NCBI RefSeq assembly: GCF_006345805.1
Contig: NC_043023.1
Span: forward strand, 12,524,001 to 12,588,000
Source: Octopus sinensis
Taxonomy: Eukaryota
Direction: 5' to 3'
Length of the DNA: 64,000 nt
How positions within the stretch are numbered: position 1 is the stretch's first letter; each line of letters begins with the position of its first letter. The position numbers and the translations under genes were made by a program. Below the pieces are notes generated by a model. The model was not told where the DNA came from, made no database searches, and saw only the letters and a list, made by a program, of their open reading frames with translations. Positions 1-57,434 of this stretch are shown here, in pieces.

Positions 1-396
1 CAGCCTCACCTGGACCCCGTGCCGGTGACACGTAAAAGCACCATCCATTCGTGGCCATTTTCCAGCTCTGTGTGGCCCCCGTGTCGGTGGCACGTAAAAG
101 CACCACCCGTTCGTGTCCGTTGCCAGCCTCGCCTGGACCCCGTGCAGCTGACACGTAAAAGCACCATCCGTTCGTGGCCGTTTGCCAGCTCTGTCTGGCA
201 CCTGTGTGGGTGGCGCGTAAAAAGCACCCACTACACTCACGGAGTGGTTGGTGTTAGGAAGGGCATCCAGCCGTAGGAACACTGCCAGATCTGACTGGGC
301 TTGATGAAGCCTTCCAGCTTCACACACCCCAGTTGAACCGTCCAACCCATGCTAGCATTGAAAACGGACGCTAAATAATGATGATGATGATGATGA
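1..396 (+). mobile_element. RTE-clade LINE 3' fragment (3'UTR with ~55-bp tandem repeats, (GAT)n tail)
   Basis: Matches the reverse complement of the 3'UTR of the RT-encoding element at 44731-47370 (GGCGTTAGGAAGGGCATCCAGC...CCAACCCATGCTAGCAT) and ends in (GAT)n. Confidence 0.85.
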
Positions 397-598
397 ATCT
401 TCCTAATTTTCGGCAGATTTAAGAATTATCTTTTAAATCTGTAGGTCAAAAGGTAAAAATCCCAGCACTTCTCTATTTCCTTTCGTAATTGTGCATTATG
501 TTGGGAGCGGGGCCATCTTTTCCCTCCCCGTTGTCATTGGAAGAATTAATCAACCTTCGAATATCGAACACACGACACTACATTCCATCCACTGATGG

Positions 599-651
599 TT
601 CTCTCAAAGTAGCAACTTAATTATACATGAGAGAAAATAGATCACTGTGAT
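599..651 (+). pseudogene. Relic zinc-finger fragment (FSQSSNLIIH...TCACTGTGAT), cut by an antisense RTE tail
   Basis: TTCTCTCAAAGTAGCAACTTAATTATACAT translates as FSQSSNLIIH, followed by a degenerate linker and CACTGTGAT; paralogues near 18785, 28335, 36235. Confidence 0.55.
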
Positions 652-865
652 CATCATCATCATCATCGTTTAACGTCCGATTTCCATTGTAGCATGGGTT
701 GCACGATTTGATTGAGAACTGGCGAACCAAGAGGCAGCACCAGGCTCCAATCTGATCTGGCAGAGTTTCTACAGCTGGATGCCCTTCCTAACACCAACCA
801 GCTGCAGAAACTCTACCAGATCAGATTGGAGCCTGGTGCTGCCATCTGGTTCGCCAGCTGTTCTC
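652..865 (-). mobile_element. Antisense RTE 3' tail with fold-back inversion
   Basis: (CAT)n plus reverse complement of the RTE 3' end; 719-780 is inverted at 800-857; paralogues about 18836-19050, 28386-28600, 36286-36500. Confidence 0.75.
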
Positions 866-3964: not shown

Positions 3965-4403
3965 AATATCATACCATGTTGATTTAAAAGAAATTTCTTC
4001 ATTCAGATGTGTGTCTGATATTTTGATTGACTTTCATCAATTAAAGGAAGACCATATATTCATAAGACACATTCATCAAAACATCAGCTTCTTTATATAA
4101 ATAAAATCTTCGCCGAACGATGGGGAAATATTTCTACTGGATGATGGAATATTTCTACTGGATGATGAGCAACATTTTTTTTGCCATCTGGAATGTAGAG
4201 ATGATGATGAACCTACAGGTTAAGTTTGAGTAACTTTACGAAAGAGTTAACCAATTTATATCTTCTGGTTTAGATATTAAGCAAGATCACCAATGAAAGT
4301 AACATAACATTTAATTATTCTCTGATGCATTTGAACACAAACATTCATAGAAATGAAACAGTTACTATCATTGTGATATGTATAACGAAATTATTCTCTC
4401 ATA

Positions 4404-5880
<1,477 letters not shown>

Positions 5881-5987
5881 TAACATCGTGATATTTGTGG
5901 TGAGTCCTTCACTCAAAAATGCCACTTAAGTACACATCTAAGTATTCATACACAGGTGTAATCGTATCAATATCAAAATTTTTTACA

Positions 5988-6479
5988 ACCCGGCAGGACA
6001 AGTGAGACCACAGCCCATGGCCTCTACCTGGGATGTAGCCAGTCCACTTATGCATACCTTTCCTTCTTGGGACACAAAACTCTACTTGTGAAGACTTGTT
6101 GAGGCAAGTGAGAATCAGAATCAAAATCGAAATCAAACAACATCAATGGAAATTGCAGCTGTGATACCAGTGCTGGTGGCATGTAAACCGCACCATCCGA
6201 TCGTGGTCGTTGCCAGTCCTGCCTGGCCCCTGTGCCGGTGGCACGTAAAAAGCACCGTCCGACCGTAGCTGTTTGCCAGCCCCGTCTGGCACCTGTGTCC
6301 GGTGGCACGTAAAAAGCACCCACTACACTCACGGAGTGGCTGGCGTTAGGAAGGGCATCCAGCCGTAGAAACATTGCCAGATCAGACTGGGCCAGGTGCA
6401 GCCTTCTGGCTTCCCAGACCCCAGTTGAACCGTCCAACCCATGCTAGCATGGAAAGCGGACACTAAATGATGATGATGA
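5988..6479 (+). mobile_element. Truncated RTE LINE 3' end forming the ZNF 3'UTR
   Basis: Starts ACCCGGCAGGACAAGTGA (TRQDK*, the RTE ORF end), has the ~55-bp repeats and (GAT)n; same insertion after copies 1-7. Confidence 0.85.
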
Positions 6480-6749
6480 CAAGAATTATGAATATTTTAT
6501 CTGCTAAAAGACAGGGTTCATTCTTCTTCAAGCTTGACATTATCAACTTCAGTTTCTTTGATGTCAACATGAAATTCATGAATCACAACTTCAATATCAT
6601 TTATATATCTAAATATATCAACACAGAGATGACTTTGGTTTCTGAAGAGGATAGTGCTGGATTGTTGAGGAATTTGTTATGAGAGAATAAAGGAATGGGA
6701 ATAAGGAATAAAAGTTTTGAGTGACATTGATTTTGTCTTTGTTGTGTTT

Positions 6750-6920
6750 TCATCATCATCTTCCTTCTCCTTTTTCTTCTTCTTCTTCTTCTTTTTCTTC
6801 TTCTTCAGTGTCCATTTTCTTTGCATGCTTGGGTGGGAAAGTGTGACCTGAGCTGGCAAGCCAGAGTGCTGCTCCAGGTTCCACTCAGATTTTGCTTGCT
6901 TTCTTAGGCTGTATCCCCTT
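6750..6920 (-). repeat. (CTT)n microsatellite plus old antisense LINE-tail fragment
   Basis: CAT/CTT runs followed by diverged similarity to the RTE 3' end; expanded at 49650-50290 and present at 57705-57900. Confidence 0.55.
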
Positions 6921-15957: not shown

Positions 15958-16515
15958 ACCCGGCAGGAAAGGTGAGTCTATAACCCATGGCCTCTACCTG
16001 GAATGTAGCCAGTCCACTTATGCATACCTTTCCTTCTTGGGACACAAAACTCTACTTGTGAAGACCTTGTTAAGGCAAGTGAGAATCAGGATCAAAATCG
16101 AAATCTATCAACATCAATGGAAATTGTAGCTGTGATACCAGTGCTGGTGGCACGTAAGAAGCACCTACCGATCGTGTCCGCTGCCAGTCTCCCCTGGCAC
16201 CTGTGCCAGTGGCATGTAAAAAGCACCATCCGAACGTGGCCGTTGCCAGCACCGCTTCAACTGGCTTCCATGCCGGTGGCTTGTAAAAAGCACCAACTGA
16301 CCGTGGCCACTGCCAGACTCCGTAGGACCCTGTGCCGGTGGCACGTAAAAAGCATCCACTACACTCACAGTGGTTGGCATTTAGGAAGGGCATCCAGCTG
16401 TAGAAATACTTCCAGATGAAACTGCAACCTGGTGCAGCCTCCTGGTATCCTAGACCCCAGTCAACCGTCCAACCCATGCTAGCAGTGAAAACAGATGTTA
16501 TACAATGATGATGAG
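15958..16515 (+). mobile_element. Truncated RTE LINE 3' end (ZNF 3'UTR, copy 2)
   Basis: Paralogous to 5988-6479. Confidence 0.85.
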
Positions 16516-16622
16516 GAGGATTCTCTGTTGTTTCCTGTGACAGACAGCTGTTCTTTTGTGTACTGGACATTTTCAATGTTTTGTTATTAAACATTTTGTA
16601 AAAATAAAATCTTTTGTGCTTG

Positions 16623-17868: not shown

Positions 17869-18580
17869 GAGAACAGTCAAAATCAAAATCAAACCAAATC
17901 AATTCATATATCAGAAAGCAGAACCAAATTGAGGTCGATCAACATCAGTGGGAATTGCAGCTGTGGTTAAGCGAACCATCCGATCGTGGTCGTTTCCCGC
18001 GCCGCACCGTCAAGCCTCCGTGTCGGTGGCACGTAAAAGCACCACCCGTTCGGGTCCGTCGCCACCCTCGCCTGGCCCCCGTGCCGGTGACACATAAAAG
18101 CACCATCCGTTCGTGCCGTTGCCAGCTCTGCCTGGCCCCGTGCCGGTGACAGGTAAAGCTCCACCCGTTCGCGTCCGTTGCCAGCCTCTCTGGCCCCGTG
18201 CCGGTGACACGTAAAGCACCACCCGCTCGTGTCCGTTGGCCAGCCTCGCCTGGCCCTCGTGCCGCTGACACGTAAAAGCACCATCCGTTCGTGGCCGTTT
18301 GCCAGCTCTGTCTGGCCCCCGTGTCGGTGGCACGTAAAAGCACCATCCGTTCGTGACCGTCTGCCAGCACTGTCTGGCACCTGTGCGGGTGGCGCGTAAA
18401 AAGCACCCACTACACTCACGGAGTGGTTGGCATTAGGAAGGGCATCCAGCAGTAGAAACACTGCCAGATCTGACTGGGCTTGATGAAGCCTTCTAGCTTC
18501 ACAGACCCCAGTTGAACCGTCCAACACATGCTAGCATGGAAAGCGGACGCTAAATGATGATGATGATGATGATGATGATG
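17869..18580 (+). mobile_element. RTE LINE 3' fragment with an expanded ~55-bp tandem array
   Basis: About 7-8 repeats containing GGCACGTAAAAGCACC; (GAT)n tail; paralogous to 1-396, 27646-28130, 35487-36030. Confidence 0.85.
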
Positions 18581-19741
18581 AATCTTCCTAATTTTCTGCA
18601 GATTTAAGAATTATCTTTTAAATCTGTAGGTCAAAAGGTAAAAATCCCAGCGCTTCTCTATTTCCTTTCGTAATTGTGCATTACGTTGGGAGCGGGGCCA
18701 TCTTTTCCCTCCCCGTTGTCACTGGAAGAATTAATCAACCTTCGAATATCGAACACACGACACTACATTCCATCCACTGACGGTTCTCTCAAAGTAGCAA
18801 CTTAATTATACATGAGAGAAAATAGATCACTGTGATCATCATCATCATCATCGTTTAGCGTCCGATTTCCATTCTAGCATGGGTTGCACGATCTGATTGA
18901 GGACTGGCGAACCAGGAGGCAGCACCAGGCTCTAATCTGATGTGGCAGAGTTTCTACAGCTGGATGCTCTTCCTAACACCAACCAGCTGTAGAAACTCTA
19001 CCAGATCAGATTGGAGCTTGGTGCAGCCATCTGGTTCGCCAACTGTTCTCTGGGAATAATGGGGATCTTTTCGGTTTGAACGGCAGGTTTTTAAATTTCT
19101 AGGTAACTAAAAAAATTTTAAACTTCGTATACAGATAGAATGTATTTATAAAGCATCTTTTTCTTTGGCTTTATTGAGAAAATTCTGTAGTTTGTAACGT
19201 ATTTGTTGTTTTTTGTCTTTTATAAAAAAACATTATGTGCCTTATGAATATGTCCCTCGTTTAAGAAACAGATTGGGTTTATTTACATTTTTGAAGAAAA
19301 AATAGATACCTTTCCCCCACCCCTAACCCTAACACAGATTGAAATGCAATAGATCGATACTAGGGTCATAATTGCGGGTGACAATTACAAATGACACCGC
19401 TAGTAAAAACTGCCGGCCAAACAGAAAAGATCCTTTTTTTTTACACAAAGTAAATAATAAGGCGATGCTTCGATATATAAGTACACACGTGACTTTGTTT
19501 ACATTTGTGAAGATAACAGAAAGCCTTTTCTCCCCACTTCTAACCCAAACACGTGGAAATTATTTTAAAAAACGGCCGTTCAAACCGAAAAGATCCCAAA
19601 TATCTTACAAACTATAGAATTTTCTCAATAAAGCCAAGAGAAAAATGTTTTATAAACACATTCTACTAGTATACGAAGTTTAAAAGTGTTTAGTTACGTG
19701 GAAATTATTTTTAAAAACTGCCGGTCAAACCGAAAAGATCC

Positions 19742-23993: not shown

Positions 23994-24420
23994 ACCCGGC
24001 AGGACAAGTGAGACCATAACCCATGGCCTCTACCTGGGATGTAGCCAGTCCACTTATGCATAGCTTTCCTTCTAGGGACACAAAACTCTACTTGTGAAGA
24101 CCTGTTGAGGCAAGTGAGAATCAGAATCCAAATCGAAATCAATCAACATCAATGGAAATTGTAGCTGTGATACCAGTGCTGGTGGATCGTAAAACGCACT
24201 ATCCGATCGTGGCCATTGCCAGTCTCTCCTGGCCCCTGTGCCGGTGGCACGTAAAAAGCATCCACTGCACTCAGAGTGGTTGGCGTTTAGGAAGGGCATC
24301 CAGCTGTAGAAGCACTGCCAGATCAGACTGCAACCTGGTGCAGCCTCCTGGCTTCCCAGACCCCAGTCAACCGTCCAACCCATGCTAGCATGGAAAACAG
24401 ATGTTATACAATGATGATGA
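23994..24420 (+). mobile_element. Truncated RTE LINE 3' end (ZNF 3'UTR, copy 3)
   Basis: Paralogous to 5988-6479 with fewer 55-bp repeats. Confidence 0.85.
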
Positions 24421-27645: not shown

Positions 27646-28130
27646 GAAGACTTAGCAAGACCAGTGAGAACAGTCAAAATCAAAATCAAAGCAAATCAAT
27701 TCATATATCAGAAAGCAGAACCAAATTGAGGTCGATCAACATCAGTGGGAATTGCAGCTGTGGTTAAGCGAACCATCAATCCTGGTCGTTCCGGCACCGC
27801 ACCGTCTAGCCTCCGTGTCGGTGGCATGTAAAAGCACCACCCGTTCGTGTCCGTTGCCAGCCTCACCTGGCCCCCGTGTCGGTGGCACGTAAAAGCACCA
27901 TCCGTTCGTGGCCGTTTGCCAGTTCTGTCTGGCACCTGTGCGGGTGGCGCGTAAAAAGCACCCACTACACTCACGGAGTGGTTGGCGTTAGGAAGGGCAT
28001 CCAGCCGTAGGAACACTGCCAGATCTGACTGGGCTTGATGAAGCCTTCTAGCTTCACAGACCCCAGTTGAACCGTCCAACCCATGCTAGCATAGAAAACG
28101 GATGCTAAATGATGATGATGATGATGATGA
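27646..28130 (+). mobile_element. RTE LINE 3' fragment
   Basis: Paralogous to 17869-18580. Confidence 0.85.
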
Positions 28131-29314
28131 ATCTTCCTAATTTTTTGCAGATTTAAGAATTATCTTTTAAATCTGTAGGTCAAAAGGTAAAAATCCCAGC
28201 GCTTCTCTATTTCCTTTCGTAATTGTGCATTATGTTGGGAGCGGGTCCATCTTTTCCCTCCCCGTTGTCATTGGAAGAATTAATCAACCTTCGAATATCG
28301 AACACACGACACTACATTCCATCCACTGACGGTTCTCTCAAAGTAGCAACTTAATTATACATGAGAGAAAATAGATCACTGTGATCATCATCATCATCAT
28401 CGTTTAACGTCCGATTTCCATTCTAGCATGGGTTGCATGATTTGATTGAGGACTGGCGAGCCAAGAGGCAGCACCAGGCTCCAATCTGATCCGGCAGAGT
28501 TTCTACAGCTGGATGCCCTTCCTAACACCAACCAGCTGTAGAAACTCTACCAGATCAGATTGGAGCCTGGTGCAGCCATCTGGGTCGCCAACTCTTCTCT
28601 GGGAATAATGGGGATCTTTTCGGTTTGAACGGCAGGTTTTAAAATTTCTAGGTAACTAAAAAAATTTTAAACTTCGTATACAGATAGAATGTATTTATAA
28701 AGCATCTTTTTCGTTGGCTCTATTGAGAAAATTCTGTAGTTTGTAACATAGTTGTTGTTTTTTTTTCTGCAATTTCAACCAATCAATGACGTCTACTGAG
28801 GTAAAAAAAAAACATTATGTGCCTTATGAATATGTCCCTCGTTTAAGAAACAGATTGGGTTTATTTACATTTTTGAAGAAAAAAAGATACCCTTCCTACA
28901 CCCCTAACCCTAACACAGATTGAAATACAATAGATCGATACAAGGGTCATAATTATGGGTGACAATTTCATATGACACCGCTACAAAAAACTGCCGGTCA
29001 AACCGAAAAGATCCTTTTCTTTTTACACAAAGGCGATGCTTCGATATATATGTACACACGTGACTTTGTTTACATTTGTGAAGATAACAGAAAGCCTTTT
29101 CTCCCCACTTCTAACCCTAACACGTGGAAATTATTTTCAAAAACTGCCGTTCAAACCGAAAAGATCCCAAATATCTTACAAACTGTAGAATTTTCTAAAT
29201 AAAGCCAAGAGAAACAGATGTTTTATAAACACATTCTACCAGTATACGAAGTTTAAAAGTGTTTCGTTACGTGGAAATTATTTTAAAAAACTGCCGGTCA
29301 AACCGAAAAGATCC

Positions 29315-29726: not shown

Positions 29727-32182
29727 TGATAAAGATTTATTTTAAGGCTGTAATGATGATGATAATAGCAATAATGATAAGGTACTACTAGCGAACAGTG
29801 GTCCCGGTGCGTGCACTCGCATATCCGCGCTTACTAGTCGTAAGTAGTCGATCCTACAATCTTTAAAACTAAGTAAATAAATAATTTTTATAAACAAACT
29901 AAAGTTAAGGTTAAAAAGTCGTAGGATCGACTACATACGACTAGCTAGCACGGATGCCTGAGTGCGCGCACCTGGACCACTGTTCGCTAGTAGTACCGTG
30001 CACCTCGCCAAGATAATGACGCTTACTTCTGAGAAAAAGTTAGGAAATGGGAAATATATCCAGAATACATAAAGTATGGAGGAAATTAGAAAGATTAATC
30101 TATTTTTTAAATATTTTATACTAAAAAATAAAATACGGAGAACGGGCACTCGCGAATATAAACAAAAAATAAGGGTACTATTTAAGAAGAGAGGTCGCGG
30201 TCGGCGCGCTAGCTAGTCGTGACTAGTCGATCCTTACTTTGTATTTTTGTTTTAAAAAAATTATTTTCTTTGTTTGAAAAAATGAGCGTAACTTCGGTAT
30301 AGGTACCGGAGTACCAGATACATTTCAAGAAAGTGTCTTTTTTTTTATATATTGGGGGGGGGGGGGATTATGGTTAAGGGTTGTGTTAGGGGTGGGAGAA
30401 AAGGGTTTCTGTTATCTTCAGAAATGTAAACAAAGCCACTCACGGTGCCTATACCGAAGGATCGCCAAAAAATTATTTATTTTGTGTTTTATTTACTTTG
30501 CTAGGTAGTCGTTGTAGGATCGACTAGTCACGACTAACTAGCGCGAGTGCGCGCACCGGGACCACTCTTTTTAAATAGTACCGGAGGAAATTAGAACGAT
30601 TAATGTATTTTTTAAACTATTTTATACTAAAAAATAAAATACGCAGAACGGGCACTCGCGAATATAAACAAACATGTATGTACGTATACGTATGTATTTA
30701 TGCATATATATGTATTATTATGTATACATATATGTGTGTGTGTAAAGGTGAAAGAAATTGAATATTAATTAATAACATCAATTTCGTATGGATTTTGGCG
30801 TTTGGTTCAGCAAATTACGTTTTTGATATACTCTACCGATGATTCGAAAATGATTTGTAAGTAAAATTACACAATCTAGAGTTAAACCATTTTTTCGTTA
30901 TTTTTCATTTGTCCTGCCCGCTTACATTCTTGGCCTGTTGAATTAATGCTAGAGAACAATTCTTTAGTGGTGGATTCCCTTTGCGGATCTATTTCTAGCG
31001 TTAGAGTGACCACATGTGGTCCCTCTCTTATTACTTGTATGTATATATATATGTGTGTGTGTGTGTGTATACAAATATATTTGTAGTGAATCTTGCATGC
31101 ATGAAGTAGATTGGATCCACCATAGCCAAAATTTTAATTAACCCTTCACCAAAATTTTCCCCACGGCAGAACAATAGAGAAATCTCTATACAGAATGTTG
31201 TAAAAGTTTCAACGCCTCAATGGATTCTGACCCCTGCAAACATAGACATTAAATGGATGACAGTGTTGATGTTGTAAGATTTGCAATGTTGAATTACTAT
31301 GTCGTTTAATGATTCTCTTTATCTCACTGCTTCTTTTTTTTCCTATTTCAGAATATAACATCCTGTTGATATGAAAGAAATTACTTCATTCAGATGTGCC
31401 TCTGATATTTTATCAGCTCCCATCAACCAAAGGAAGATGATATATTTATACGGAGCATTCATCAATACATCAAACTCATCTTATAAAGGAAATCTGTGAA
31501 AAACAACAGCAAAATATTTCTTCTGGACGATGGAATTAACAGCAACAATTTGAAGTCTTTGCTGTCTGGAATATAGAGGAGATGATTGTTTTACAGGTTA
31601 ATTAAGCTTGGATAACTTTACAAAGGGGTAGACAATTGTCACCTCTTCATTTAGATATTAAGCAAAATCACAGATGAAAGAAGCATAGCATTAAATTATT
31701 CTCTGAAAATAGCAACACAAATATATTCATAGAAATGAATTTTTTTCCTATTTCAGAATATCATACCATGTTGATTTAAAAGAAATTTCTTCATTCAGAT
31801 GTGTGTCTGATATTTTTATTGACTTTCATCAATTAAAGGAAGACCATATATTCATAAGGCACATTCATCAATACATCAGCCTCTTTATATAAATAAAATC
31901 TTCGACGAACGATGGGGAAATATTTCTTCTGGATGATGGAATTAAGAGCAACATTTTTTTTGCCATCTGGAATGTAGAGATGATGATGAACCTACAGGTT
32001 AAGTTTGAGTAACTTTACAAAAGAGTTAACCAATTTATATCTTCTGTTTTAGATATTAAGCAAGATCACCAATGAAAGTAACATAACATTTAATTATTCT
32101 CTGATGCATTTGAACGCAAACATTCATAGAAATGAAACAGTTACTATCATTGTGATATGTATAACGAAATTATTATCTCATA

Positions 32183-33655
32183 ATGAATAATTCAACGAAA
32201 GCAAAAATCAATGATAAAAGAGAGAAGCCATATCACTGTGATATCTGTGGAAAGTCATTCTCTGAAAGTGGTAATTTAAGAAGGCACAGACGTGTTCATA
32301 CTGGAGAAAAACCATATCAGTGTGATATCTGTAGTATATCATTTTCTAGAAGTAACATTTTAACCGATCACAAACGTATTCATACAGGAGAGAAGCCATA
32401 CCATTGTGATATCTGTGGTAAATCATTCACTACAAATAGTTCTTTGACTAGTCATATACGTATTCATACTGCGGAAAAACCATATCCGTGTGATATCTGT
32501 GGTAAATCATTCTCTACCAGTGGTAACTTAAATAAACACAAACGTACACATACAGGAGAAAAGCCCCATCATTGTAATATCTGTGGTAAATCATTTTCTA
32601 GAAGTAACATTTTAACTGATCACAAACGTATTCATACAGGAGAGAAGCCATACCATTGTGATATCTGTGGTAAATCATATTCTTGGCTTTCTTCTTTAAA
32701 TGGGCACAAACGTATTCATACAGGAGAGAAACCATACCATTGTGATATCTGTGGTAAATCATTCACTCACAGTAGTCACTTGCCTAAACATAAACGTATT
32801 CATACTGGGGAAAAACCATATCATTGTGATATCTGTGGTGAATCATTCTCTGAAATTGGCACTTTAACCGGACACCTACGTACTCATACAGGAGAGAAAC
32901 CATATCAGTGTGATATCTGTGGTAAATCATTCTCTACCAGTAGTGACTTAAATAAGCACAAACGTACACATACAGGAGAAAAGCCCCATCATTGTAATAT
33001 CTGTGGTAAATCATTCACTAGAAATAATCATTTGACTAAACATATACGTATTCATACAGGAGAAAAGCCCCATCATTGTAATATCTGTGGTAAATCATTT
33101 TCTAGAAGTAACATTTTAACTGATCACAAACGTATTCATATAGGAGAGAAGCCATACCATTGTGATATCTGTGGTAAATCATTTTCTAGAAGTAACATTT
33201 TAACTGATCACAAACGTATTCATACAGGAGAGAAGCCATACCATTGTGATATCTGTGGTAAATCATATTCTTGGAGTAACGTTTTAAGTAGTCACAAACG
33301 TATTCATACAGGAGAGAAGCCATACCATTGTGATATCTGTGGTAAATCATTTTCTAGAAATAGTACTTTGACTAGTCATGTACGTATTCATACTGGGGAA
33401 AAACCATATCATTGTGATACCTGTGGTAAATCATTCTCTGAAAATAGCCATTTAACCAGACACCTACGTATTCATACAGGAGAGAAGCCATATCATTGTG
33501 ATATCTGTGGTAAATCATTCTCTCACAGTAGTCACTTGCCTAAACATAAACGTATTCATACTGGGGAAAAACCATATCATTGTGATATTTGTGGTGAGTC
33601 ATTCTCTCAAAAACCCCACTTAAGTTCACATCTGAGTATTCATCAACAGGTGTAA
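32183..33655 (+). CDS. C2H2 zinc-finger protein, 17 fingers, full-length (copy 4)
   Basis: 490-aa ORF ending in the conserved terminal finger ...[15 protein letters not shown]. Confidence 0.95.
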
Positions 33656-33681: not shown

Positions 33682-34176
33682 ACCCGGCAGGAAAAGTGAG
33701 TCCATAAACCATGGCCTCTACCTGGAGTGTTGCCAGTCCACTTATGCATACCTTTCCTTCTTGGGACACAAAACTCTACTTGTGAAGACCTGTTGAGGCA
33801 AGTGAGAATCAGGATCAAAATCGAAATCAATCAACATTAATGGAAATTGTAGCTGTGATACCAGTGCTGGTGGGACGTAAAAAGCAACATTTGAATGTGG
33901 CCGTTGCCAGCACCGTCCCAACTGGCTTCCGGGCCAGTGGCATGTAAGAAGCACCGACCGATCGTGGCCGCTGCCAGCCTCTCCTGGCCCTTGTGCCCGT
34001 GGCACGTAAAAAGCATCCACTACATTCACAGAGTGGTTGGCGTTTAGGAAGGGCATCCAGCTGTAGAAACACTGCCAGATCAGACTGCAACCCGGTGCAG
34101 CCTCCTGGCTTCCCAGACCCCAGTCAACCGTCCAACCCATTCTAGCAGGGAAAACAGATGTTAAACAATGATGATG
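33682..34176 (+). mobile_element. Truncated RTE LINE 3' end (ZNF 3'UTR, copy 4)
   Basis: Paralogous to 5988-6479. Confidence 0.85.
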
Positions 34177-34289
34177 AGGAGGATTCTCCATTGTTTCCTG
34201 TGACAGACAGCTGTTCTTTTGTGTACTGGACATTTCCAATGTTTTGTTATTAAACATTTTGTAAAAATAAAATTTTTTGTGCATGCTTA

Positions 34290-35486: not shown

Positions 35487-36030
35487 AAGACCCGGCAAGA
35501 CCAGTGAGAACATTCAAAATCAAAATCAAAGCAAATCAATTCATATATCAGAAAGCAGAAGCAAATTGAGGTCGATCAACATCAGTGGGAATTGCAGCTG
35601 TGGTTAAGCGAACCATCCGATCGTGGTCGTTTCCGGCGCCGCCCTCGTCTAGCCTCCATGTCAGTGACACGTAAAAGCACCATCCGTTCGTGGCCGTTTG
35701 CCAGCTCTGTCTGGCCCCCGTGTCGGTAACACATAAAAGCACCATCCGTTTGTGACCGTTTGCTAGCTCTGTCTGGCCACCGTGTCGGTGGCACGTAAAA
35801 GCACCATCCGTTCATGACCGTCTGCCAGCTCTTTCTGGCACCTGTGCGGGTGGCACGTAAAAAGCACCCACTACACTCACGGAGTGGTTGGCGTTAGGAA
35901 GGGCATCCAGCCATAGAAACACTGCCAGATCTGACTGGGCTTGATGAAGCCTTCTAGCTTCACAGACCCCAGTTGAACCGTCCAACACATGCTAGCATGG
36001 AAAGCGGACGCTAAATGATGATGATGATGA
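35487..36030 (+). mobile_element. RTE LINE 3' fragment
   Basis: Starts GAAGACCCGGCAAGAC (KTRQD), ends (GAT)n. Confidence 0.85.
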
Positions 36031-37224
36031 ATCTTCCTAATTTTCTGCAGATTTAAGAATTATCTTTTAAATCTGTAGGTCAAAAGGTAAAAATCCCAGC
36101 GCTTCTCTATTTCCTTTCGTAATTGTGCATTATGTTGGGAGCGGCACCATCTTTTCCCTCCCCGTTGTCATTGGAAGAATTAATCAACCTTCGAATATCG
36201 AACACACAACACTACATTCCATCCACTGACGGTTCTCTCAAAGTAGCAACTTAATTATACATGAGAGAAAATAGATCACTGTGATCATCATCATCATCAT
36301 CGTTTAACGTCCGATTTCCATTGTAGCATGGGTTGCACGATTTGATTGAGGACTGGCGAACCAAGTGGCAACACCAGGCTCCAATCTGATCTGGCAGAGT
36401 TACTACAGCTGGATGCCCTTCCTAACACCAACCAGCTGTAGAAACTCTACCAGATCAGATTGGAGCCTGGTGCAGCCATCTGGTTCGACAACTGTTCTCT
36501 GGGAATAATGGGGATCATTTCGGTTTGAACAGCAGGTTTTAAAATTTCTAGGTAACTAAAAAAATTTTAAACTTCGTATACAGATAGAATGTATTTATAA
36601 AGCATCTTTTTCGTTGGCTCTAATGAGAAAATTCTGTAGTTTGTAACATATTTGTTGTTTTTATTTCTGCAATTCCAACCAATCAATGACGTCTTTTGAG
36701 GTAAAAAAAAACATTATGTGCCTTATGAATATGTCCCTCGTTTAAGAAACAGATTGGGTTTATTTACATTTTTGAAGAAAAAAAAGATACCCTTCCTCCA
36801 CCCCTAACACTAACACTGATTGAAATGCAATAGATCGATACTAGGGTCATAATTATGGGTGACAATTTCATATGACACCGCTACAAAAAACTGCCGGTCA
36901 AACCGAAAAGATCCTTTTCTTTTTACACAAAGTAAATAATAAGGTGATGCTTCCATATATAAGTACGCACGTGACTTTGTTTACATTTGTGAAGATAACA
37001 GAAAGCCTTTTCTCCCCACTTCTAACCCTAACACGTGGAAATCATTTTAAAAAGCTGCCGTTCAAACCGAAAAGATCCCAAATATCTTCCACACTGTAGA
37101 ATTTTCTCAATAAAGCCAAGAGAAACAGATGTTTTATAAACACATTCTACCAGTATACGAAGTTTAAATGTTTAGTTACGTGGAAATTATTTTCAAAAAA
37201 CTGCCGGTCAAACCGAAAAGATCC

Positions 37225-41493: not shown

Positions 41494-41978
41494 ACCCGGC
41501 AGGACAAGTGAGACCATAACCCATGGTCTCTACCTGGGATGTAGCCAGTCCACTTATGCATACCTTTCCTTCTTGGGACAGAAAACTCTACTACTGAAGA
41601 CCTGTTGATGCAAGTGAGAATCAAAATCGAAATCAATCAACATCAATGGAAATTGTAGCTGTGATACCAGTACTGGTTGCACGTAAAAAGCACCATCCGA
41701 TCGTGGCCATTGCCAGCCACGCCTGGCCTCTGTGCCGGTGGCACATAAAAAGCAACGGCCGATCTTGGCCGAAGCAGCCTCCCCTGGCCCCTGTGCCGGT
41801 GCACATGAAAAGCATCCACTACACTGACAGAGTAGTTGGCGTTTAGGAAGGGCATCCAGCTGTAGAGACACTGCCAGATCAGACTGCAACCTGGTGCAGC
41901 CTCCTGGTTTCCCAGACCCAGTCAACTGTCCAACCCATGCTAGCAGGGAAAACAGATGTTAAACAATGATGATGATGA
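41494..41978 (+). mobile_element. Truncated RTE LINE 3' end (ZNF 3'UTR, copy 5)
   Basis: Paralogous to 5988-6479. Confidence 0.85.
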
Positions 41979-44670: not shown

Positions 44671-48835
<4,165 letters not shown>

Positions 48836-48861: not shown

Positions 48862-49381
48862 ACCCGGCAGGACAAGTGAGACCACAACCCATGGCCTCTA
48901 CCTGGGATGTAGCCAGTCCACTTATGCATACCTTTCCTTCTTGGGACACAAAACTCTACTTGTGAAGACTTGTTGAGGCAAGTGAGAATCAGAATCAAAA
49001 TCGAACACCCATCATTAGGAAATTGTAGCTGTGATACCATGCTGGTGGCATGTAAAAAGCACCATCCGATCGTGGCCATTGCCAGTCTCGCCTGGCCCCC
49101 GTGCGGCTGGCACGTAAAAAGCACCATCCGACCGTAGCTGTTTGCCACCCGTGTGGCACCTGTGTCCGGTGGCACGTACAAAGTAAACCATACACGGGTG
49201 GTGGTGGCGTTAGGAAGTGGCACACAGCAGCCGTCAGAAAATTGCCTGCAGATCCAGTGGCCAGGTGCAGCCTTGTGGTCCAGAACCCCGGGTCGAGAAC
49301 CCAACCCATCAGACTCCCAGCCTTGGCTTCAGACAGGAGAACCCATGCTAGCATGAAAGCGGACCTAAATGATGATGATGA
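48862..49381 (+). mobile_element. Truncated RTE LINE 3' end (ZNF 3'UTR, copy 6)
   Basis: Paralogous to 5988-6479. Confidence 0.8.
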
Positions 49382-56952: not shown

Positions 56953-57434
56953 ACCCGGCAGGACAATGAGACCACAACCCATGGCCTCTACCTGGGATGT
57001 AGCCATTCCACTTATGCATACCTTATCTTCTTGTGACACAAAACTCTACTTGTGAAGACCTTTGAGGCAAGTGAGAATCATAATCAAATCAAATCAACCA
57101 ACATCAATGGAAATTGCAGCTTTTGATACCATGCTGGTGGCATGTAAAAAAAGCACCATCCGATCGTGGTCCGTTGCCAGCTCGCCTGGCCCCCTGCGGC
57201 TGGCACGTAAAACCACCATCCGATTGTGGCGTTGCCAGCCCCGTCTGGCACCCTTAATGGTGGCATGTAAAAAGCACCCACTACACTCACGAGTGGTTGC
57301 GTTGAAGGGCATCCAGCTGCGTAGAAACATTGCCAGATCAGACTGGGCCAGGTGCAGCCTTGTGGCTTCCCAGACCCCGGTCGAACCATCCAACCATGCT
57401 AGCATGGAAAGCGGACGCTAAATGATGATGATGA
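56953..57434 (+). mobile_element. Truncated RTE LINE 3' end (ZNF 3'UTR, copy 7)
   Basis: Paralogous to 5988-6479. Confidence 0.8.

What the first reader, a model, noticed from the sequence alone, without database searches (positions are those of the whole stretch)
5962..6479. Every ZNF 3'UTR is a captured sense RTE LINE 3' end
Seen: about 27 bp after the ancestral stop (CAGGTGTAA), copies 1-7 all continue into the last codons, 3'UTR and (GAT)n tail of the RTE. Known: non-L1 LINE RTs recognise their own 3' tail, which SINEs exploit for mobilisation. Inference: ZNF mRNAs ending in this tail could be retrotransposed in trans, co-targeted by anti-RTE piRNAs, or paired with antisense RTE copies to form ADAR substrates. 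That would link ZNF expression to LINE activity.
Basis: partly seen in the sequence, partly recalled or inferred. Interest (0 to 1): 0.7.

Follow-up and report, generated by a model that had tools for sequence, protein, structure and literature searches.

The report
LINE tail mobilises zinc-finger gene fragments
A single truncated LINE retrotransposon sits just after the stop codon of about 65 tandemly duplicated zinc-finger genes in an octopus-like genome, and two fragments on other chromosomes carry this cluster's sequence variants and were likely reverse-transcribed from its transcripts through that tail; no regulatory role was shown.

Summary
Observation confirmed: all 7 complete genes in the window continue, 26 bp after the ancestral stop, into the 3' end of an RTE-type LINE. 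It is one insertion inherited by tandem duplication (about 65 copies), not seven captures, and not every ZNF: 21 of 22 family members checked outside the main cluster have the empty site. The LINE lies inside an older 3'UTR, with two AATAAA signals about 210-230 nt past the tail, so mRNAs probably do not end in it. The retrotransposition prediction holds up. A 1.3-kb copy on another chromosome (about 400 bp of ZNF coding sequence plus the LINE end) and a 0.29-kb LINE-only copy on a third carry cluster-specific variants, are 5'-truncated, stop at a lengthened tail and lack the genomic flank. Both are non-coding fragments; their target-site duplications are ambiguous. In 32 of 54 classified genes the 3' half was swapped, likely by recombination with a second LINE copy that still stands at the cluster edge. 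The LINE segment is no better conserved than its flanks. piRNA and ADAR links are untested. A neat natural case of 5' transduction by a tail-recognising LINE, not a shown regulatory system.

The parts
4386..5807 (+). ZNF copy 1 open frame (473 aa stop to stop, C2H2 array); a frameshift ends it before the ancestral stop
5959..5961 (+). Ancestral stop codon of copy 1
5962..5987 (+). 26-bp host spacer: start of the ancestral 3'UTR, also present in empty-site paralogues
5988..6477 (+). 5'-truncated RTE-type LINE, type A: last ORF codons, 3'UTR with 62-64-bp minisatellite units, (GAT)n tail
6432..6461 (+). Predicted 3' stem-loop just before the tail, candidate RT recognition element (function inferred; z-score only -1.67)
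6478..6712 (+). Rest of the ancestral 3'UTR with two AATAAA signals at 6686 and 6707
15958..16512 (+). LINE segment of copy 2, type B (recombined 3' half, different flank, AATAAA at 16603)
23994..24418 (+). LINE segment of copy 3, type B
32165..33655 (+). ZNF copy 4, the only window copy with a long ORF (496 aa, 17 fingers) ending at the ancestral stop
33682..34175 (+). LINE segment of copy 4, type B; AATAAA at 34266
41494..41976 (+). LINE segment of copy 5, type B
44730..47370 (-). Separate 2.6-kb 5'-truncated LINE of a related subfamily inserted antisense into the ZNF exon of copy 6, no clear target-site duplication
48862..49379 (+). LINE segment of copy 6, type A; this gene is in the group nearest to the C18 dispersed copy
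56953..57432 (+). LINE segment of copy 7, type A

Best explanation
One 5'-truncated LINE sits 26 bp after the stop codon inside the 3'UTR of about 65 tandem ZNF genes, likely from a single insertion spread by duplication, and it likely acts as a passive handle that occasionally lets LINE reverse transcriptase copy these genes' transcripts elsewhere. Steps. (1) Shown: one shared junction, with empty-site paralogues giving the pre-insertion state. (2) Inferred: ZNF transcripts read through the tail to downstream poly(A) signals. (3) Inferred: LINE protein made in trans binds the embedded 3' end and primes reverse transcription at the internal (GAT)n repeat on a microsatellite-like target, so the downstream UTR is dropped, the tail lengthens and the cDNA is 5'-truncated. 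(4) Shown: two such products exist, at G000:C18:47.07 Mb (about 400 bp ZNF + spacer + LINE end) and G000:C3:78.24 Mb (LINE end only); both are non-coding fragments. (5) Inferred from a surviving donor: recombination between this LINE and a second copy at the cluster edge replaced the 3' half, the stem-loop and the poly(A) region in the type B genes. The insertion itself looks tolerated rather than selected.
For: Single event: identical junction in 7 of 7 window copies and 61 junctions in the 504 kb of cluster scanned; 21 of 22 family 3' ends inspected outside the main cluster are empty and join the spacer directly to the type A flank. Dispersed copy 1: the only match on another chromosome among 62 stop+spacer and 63 junction matches (3 more lie on small unplaced contigs). 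It is 5'-truncated within the finger array, ends at the tail, has no intron or 3' flank, and sits in the microsatellite tail of an opposite-strand LINE. It nests in a 96/95-supported, mostly type A clade, is 413/428 identical to its nearest cluster gene over ZNF+spacer, and carries type A alleles near both ends of the LINE segment that 0 of 20 generic copies have (genome-wide 24 dispersed exact matches to the 3' allele against 5247 to the common one). Dispersed copy 2 has all 4 type A 3' diagnostics; 0 of 20 generic copies have any, and it is the only non-cluster match of 8 to one of them. Tails have 6 and 7 repeat units against 3-4 in 20 of 20 type A tails counted. Type B donor: a LINE inserted in an LTR-like repeat at G000:C27:12496404, 87-88% like three type B 3' halves and with the same flank. 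No extra conservation: type A LINE segment 94-95% mean pairwise identity against 97.4-97.5% for flanks; 5 of 61 copies lost the tail and 2 more have an internal deletion. Contigs from runs only guessed to be RNA bridge the tail-to-flank junction of copy 4 in 3 of 4 runs (weak).
Against: The direct repeats flanking the dispersed copies (7 bp at C18, 5 bp at C3) overlap microsatellite or LINE sequence at both ends, so they can be read as blunt insertions with microhomology; they are not independent proof of target-primed reverse transcription. Both copies lie within one exon, so intron loss, the classic test of an RNA intermediate, cannot be applied. The C18 copy adjoins an inverted LINE that shares two of its variants, so DNA-level exchange has happened there. 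Only two events were found. The stem-loop is weak against shuffles (z -1.5 to -1.7), and its role in this family is untested. Transcript ends and strand were not measured.
Confidence: 0.78

Rival explanations
1. The dispersed copies are DNA-level events: break repair or gene conversion at other LINE copies used a ZNF-cluster gene as template, with no RNA intermediate.
For: At least 5247 homologous LINE ends exist as partners; recombination between LINE copies evidently occurred in this cluster; the inverted neighbour at C18 shares two variants with the insert; target-site duplications are ambiguous.
Against: Two separate copies both stop exactly at the tail, both have longer tails than any type A source counted, neither carries any downstream flank, and neither shows a remnant of a different recipient LINE upstream.
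Confidence: 0.12
2. The LINE tail was co-opted as a regulatory 3'UTR module (piRNA target or ADAR substrate) that ties expression of this ZNF clade to LINE activity, and this favoured the clade's expansion.
For: The tail is retained in 56 of 61 junction-bearing copies; repeats in coleoid 3'UTRs are frequent editing sites (PMC9068888, passages); piRNAs are reported as broadly expressed in molluscs (PMC6128900, search listing and start of abstract).
Against: In type A genes the LINE segment is more divergent than both flanks; in type B it is 92-95% against 91-92% mean (97-98% median) for flanks. Most relatives checked lack it. No antisense LINE end was found within 1.4 kb downstream of any of 54 tails. 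Retention is expected from recent whole-gene duplication.
Confidence: 0.1
3. The LINE supplies the transcript's true 3' end, making each mRNA a SINE-like template.
For: Both dispersed copies end at the tail.
Against: The ancestral UTR with two AATAAA signals is kept downstream in 22 of 22 type A genes and in 19 of 21 empty-site ends; 31 of 32 type B genes have an AATAAA within about 130 nt of the tail; contigs from guessed-RNA runs cross the tail (weak).
Confidence: 0.06

Closest known systems
5' transduction by SVA and L1 from upstream promoters (PMC12593883, passages read)
   Same: Host sequence upstream of an element is co-mobilised because transcription starts upstream.
   Different: There the relaxed L1 machinery uses a poly(A) tail. 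Here the element is a 0.5-kb non-autonomous 3' fragment of an RTE-type LINE inside a gene's UTR, the product ends at an internal microsatellite tail, and the host part is coding sequence.
SINE/LINE pairs with a shared 3' tail, stringent recognition (PMC3747384 passages; PMC4176376 first fifth of text; PMC6007223 abstract and one discussion section)
   Same: A non-autonomous RNA carrying a LINE 3' end is predicted to be copied by the LINE's enzyme; microhomology between tail and target is typical of CR1, L2 and RTE.
   Different: The head is a protein-coding gene rather than a small-RNA promoter, and only two products were found, so no new repeat family arose.
Octopus C2H2-ZNF tandem clusters and RTE LINEs (PMC9068888, PMC12988792, PMC10547256 passages; RTE-2_OV in PMC9115989 passages and section 8)
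   Same: Large tandem arrays of multi-finger genes in a TE-rich coleoid genome; a single-ORF LINE with endonuclease, RT, a zinc-binding domain and a repeat-rich 3'UTR.
   Different: The passages read describe no LINE tail shared by ZNF 3'UTRs and no ZNF retrocopy. Four RTE-2_OV primers mismatch five long copies at 5-8 of 20 positions, so this is probably another family; the copies cover only the last 2.5 kb or less.
LTR-mediated and L1-mediated retrocopies (PMC5131818, passages)
   Same: Partial gene copies made through RNA.
   Different: No LTR arms at both ends and no poly(A) tail; the 3' end is a LINE tail inherited from the source locus.

Membership tests
APE-type non-LTR retrotransposon (LINE), 5'-truncated copy | RT-encoding ORF upstream of this 3'UTR in longer copies | tested here: met
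   RVT_1 in L021 frames, E 6e-16 and 1e-7
APE-type non-LTR retrotransposon (LINE), 5'-truncated copy | Shared 3' end with simple-repeat tail and variable 5' truncation in dispersed copies | tested here: met
   20 of 20 dispersed top hits end in the tail; lengths 0.46 to at least 2.5 kb
RTE clade | Single ORF of about 1000-1100 aa with AP endonuclease and RT | tested here: inconclusive
   Met by homologues at about 50% identity; no full-length copy from this genome was examined
RTE clade | RT phylogeny groups with named RTE elements | not tested
   No clade-named references among hits; the RTE label rests on architecture, tail and a recalled C-terminal motif
Retroposed copy / 5' transduction (C18 and C3 copies) | 3' end at the element's tail, no downstream genomic flank, 5' truncation | tested here: met
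Retroposed copy / 5' transduction (C18 and C3 copies) | Derives from the source locus (diagnostic variants, tree position) | tested here: met
Retroposed copy / 5' transduction (C18 and C3 copies) | Unambiguous target-site duplication | tested here: inconclusive
   7-bp and 5-bp direct repeats overlap microsatellite or LINE letters; most of 20 generic copies also show none by eye, one shows 14 bp
Retroposed copy / 5' transduction (C18 and C3 copies) | Loss of introns | not testable with these tools
   Both copies are truncated within the last exon
Stringent-type LINE recognition | 3' stem-loop required and bound by the cognate ORF | not testable with these tools
   Hairpin core intact in 19 of 22 type A, 1 of 32 type B, 16 of 20 generic copies; binding untested
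SINE-like non-autonomous family | Many dispersed copies with a common head and own promoter | tested here: not met
   One dispersed copy with ZNF sequence among 62-63 matches
Exapted regulatory 3'UTR element | Conservation above neighbouring sequence | tested here: not met

The most novel reading that the evidence does not exclude
LINE tails embedded in 3'UTRs are a general route by which tail-recognising LINEs retropose host mRNAs. In octopus this would turn a whole expanding ZNF clade into retroposition templates able to seed ZNF sequence on other chromosomes, with competence switched off in the sub-lineage whose stem-loop was replaced by recombination.
Probability: 0.15. Interest if true: 0.75.

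Novelty: new variant of a known kind. Interest (0 to 1): 0.47.

Why it matters
Tail-recognising LINEs are generally thought not to make processed pseudogenes, unlike L1. This locus is a natural test case in which a host gene that picked up the tail was likely mobilised at least twice from an internal, not terminal, tail. The cluster offers a built-in comparison of about 22 genes with an intact 3' hairpin, about 32 with a broken one, and many relatives with no tail. It also shows a LINE fragment serving as the likely recombination point that swapped 3' ends in a majority of a young ZNF clade. The products found are dead fragments, so the evolutionary effect shown is small.

Tried and rejected
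Independent captures: rejected, one junction and empty-site paralogues. A SINE whose 5' end is at the junction: rejected, 17 of 20 dispersed top hits continue upstream into LINE sequence with different truncation points. Expression: no RNA holder listed on record; four runs guessed to be RNA were laid as contigs on copy 4's 3' region, without a silent control stretch, and showed no transcript end and no excess of A-to-G differences, which contigs cannot exclude. More LINE-only retrocopies: 24 dispersed carriers of one type A allele were read; 1 is convincing, 2 extend into LINE ORF with generic alleles, the rest are generic-like or too short to assign. 12 dispersed carriers of a second diagnostic were homoplasies sharing 1 of 4 markers, mostly from a different subfamily. 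Type B retrocopies: 6 candidates read (3 exact non-cluster matches and 3 one-mismatch matches, from the 100 of 234 listed), none convincing; 2 from type A against 0 from type B is not significant (about 0.17 by hand). Family members on C1, C6, C15, C18 and C28 (8 ends in 7 loci) are empty-site genes that continue into genomic flank without poly(A), so not retrocopies. The filled copy at C27:12.068 Mb keeps intron and flank, so it is a DNA duplicate. Identity with RTE-2_OV: primers do not match. A long hairpin in copy 1's 3' region: only two 9-bp helices. Earlier findings of this scan: none returned. Ten paper searches showed no report of this locus or of RTE-tail-mediated gene retroposition; the library lacks most subscription journals, and 7 of 8 readable supplements of PMC9115989 were not opened.

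Full report
Setting. The window is a tandem array of long C2H2 zinc-finger genes, seven complete and one cut at the end, about 8-10 kb apart. It lies at G000:C27:12,524,001-12,588,000 in a 2.72-Gb genome. The best named homologue of the LINE protein is from Octopus bimaculoides at 85% identity, so I treat the genome as octopus-like.

Observation. All seven complete copies show the same junction: ancestral stop, 26-bp spacer, then LINE sequence from the last codons of the ORF through a 3'UTR with 62-64-bp minisatellite units to a short (GAT)n tail. Twenty dispersed top hits are 89-93% identical, end in the same tail and are truncated at different 5' points; the longer ones encode RT. Homologues have a single ORF of about 1000-1100 aa with endonuclease, RT and a PHD-like finger. 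That fits the RTE clade, but I ran no phylogeny with named references. The family is abundant: one 32-mer has 5247 exact matches. From 19 LINE ends in 127 kb of non-cluster loci (loci not randomly chosen), a same-strand end within 600 bp of a given point has a chance of roughly 4% (hand estimate), which is unremarkable for one event.

One insertion, not seven. The junction occurs 61 times in the 504 kb of cluster scanned, about 65 times on C27 in all. Paralogues elsewhere have the empty site: the spacer runs straight into the flank that follows the tail in type A genes. The flank motif has 108 matches genome-wide, and 21 of 22 ends inspected outside the main cluster are empty. The six empty-site genes in the tree form one side of a 98/93 branch. 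So the LINE inserted once, without an evident target-site duplication, inside an existing 3'UTR. That UTR keeps two AATAAA signals about 210 and 230 nt past the tail in 22 of 22 type A genes and in 19 of 21 empty ends. The mRNA therefore probably runs past the tail (inference). Contigs from runs only guessed to be RNA bridge the tail-to-flank junction of copy 4 in 3 of 4 runs and the spacer-to-LINE junction in 1 of 4 by the 31-letter rule, and cover flank to about 35,090 in all four. With no silent control this is weak.

Two 3' types. Of 61 junctions, 22 are type A, 32 type B and 7 damaged; of the 7, five lost the tail and two are type B with an internal deletion. A and B share the 5' part of the LINE (93%) but differ in the 3' part (85%). 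The B flank belongs to an LTR-like repeat also seen on C5 and C11. At C27:12,496,404, at the cluster's edge, a LINE copy interrupts that repeat at the same point and is followed by the same flank, with no ZNF upstream in the stretch read. The simplest reading is recombination between the two LINE copies, which replaced the ancestral UTR. The B genes have an AATAAA where the two outside copies of the repeat have an A run, and their 3' hairpin core is intact in only 1 of 32, against 19 of 22 type A and 16 of 20 generic copies. Of 13 genes with ten or more in-frame fingers reaching the stop, 10 are type B; some frameshifts may be assembly errors, which I did not test.

Dispersed copies. Three pattern searches each gave one match on another chromosome, at C18:47.07 Mb. 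The insert (47,074,177-47,075,469 with flanking repeats) has about 400 bp of finger-coding sequence, the stop, the spacer, the LINE end with an expanded minisatellite, and a longer tail, then runs directly into the tail of an opposite-strand LINE. There is no intron and no ZNF flank. It nests among type A genes, next to the group that includes window copy 6, is 96.5% identical to the nearest over ZNF+spacer, and has two in-frame stops. It carries type A alleles near both ends of the LINE segment. A second copy at C3:78.24 Mb, about 0.29 kb and LINE-only, has four of four type A markers that none of 20 generic copies carry. Tails are 6 and 7 units against 3-4 in the 20 type A tails counted. Against this reading: the flanking direct repeats (7 and 5 bp) overlap repeat letters and can be read as blunt joins; intron loss cannot be tested; the inverted neighbour at C18 shares two variants with the insert, so local conversion has occurred; 35 other single-marker carriers were unassignable or homoplasies. 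No type B product was found among 6 candidates, which is not significant.

Mechanism. LINEs of several non-L1 clades, including RTE, are reported to recognise their own 3' tail, with a stem-loop bound by the ORF protein in L2 elements (PMC4176376, first fifth read; PMC3747384, passages), and tail-target microhomology is typical (PMC6007223, abstract and one section). That priming can start at an internal repeat with slippage is recalled from the eel L2 work, not read here. Applied here: a ZNF transcript carries the tail internally, LINE protein made elsewhere binds it, priming at the repeat drops the downstream UTR and lengthens the tail, and truncation leaves 0.3-1.3 kb. The products are shown; the RNA intermediate and the enzyme are inferred.

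Function. I found no sign that the host uses the segment. Among type A genes it is 94-95% identical against 97.4-97.5% for flanks; among type B, 92-95% against 91-92% mean and 97-98% median. No antisense LINE end was found closer than 1.4 kb downstream of any of 54 tails. Repeats in coleoid 3'UTRs are commonly edited (PMC9068888, passages), so editing or piRNA matching may occur, but that would be shared with many transcripts and was not tested.

Comparison and novelty. It works like SVA/L1 5' transduction (PMC12593883, passages) using SINE-style tail borrowing, but it is not a SINE family and not a poly(A) retrocopy. It is probably not RTE-2_OV (PMC9115989, passages, section 8, first part of one supplement). 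Ten searches showed no description of this locus or route, within a library that lacks most subscription journals. Verdict: new variant of a known kind, interest 0.47.

Noticed in passing
window 44730-47370 (-): A 2.6-kb antisense LINE of a related subfamily splits the ZNF exon of copy 6, joined by tail microhomology with no clear duplication; it has an internal tandem duplication of about 250 bp.
   Followed up: partly
window 342-702, 18521-18887, 28076-28436, 35982-36336: Tail-to-tail pairs of sense and antisense LINE ends about 300-360 bp apart, upstream of the ZNF exon in several units; the same arrangement occurs at C18 and L012. Candidate short dsRNA in pre-mRNA.
   Followed up: no
L031-L032, G000:C18:47,075,470-47,075,900 (-): The antisense LINE beside the dispersed copy shares a type A allele and a variant otherwise seen only in the insert, suggesting a short conversion tract between inverted arms.
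   Followed up: partly
L128, G000:C27:12,496,404: LINE inserted in an LTR-like repeat, the likely donor of the type B 3' end; uninterrupted relatives of the repeat at C5:64.74 Mb and C11:54.33 Mb.
   Followed up: yes
window 34266 and equivalents in type B genes: The type B AATAAA corresponds to an A run in the two outside copies of the repeat; the donor already has it. Possible poly(A) signal made by one substitution.
   Followed up: partly
G000:C27, between 12,831,666 (+) and 12,837,943 (-): The cluster changes orientation here; many genes occur as near-identical pairs or triplets about 100 kb or 42 kb apart, i.e. recent block duplications or assembly duplication.
   Followed up: no
G000:C10168, C10297, C13497: Three small contigs repeat the same ZNF region as C27:12.05-12.07 Mb at nearly identical offsets; probably redundant haplotigs.
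   Followed up: partly
window about 6750-6880 (-): A degenerate antisense repeat resembling an old LINE tail lies just past the second AATAAA in both filled and empty family members (resemblance judged by eye).
   Followed up: no
P0001: A database protein from O. bimaculoides joins this LINE's RT region to a LETM1-like domain; may be a gene-prediction artefact.
   Followed up: no
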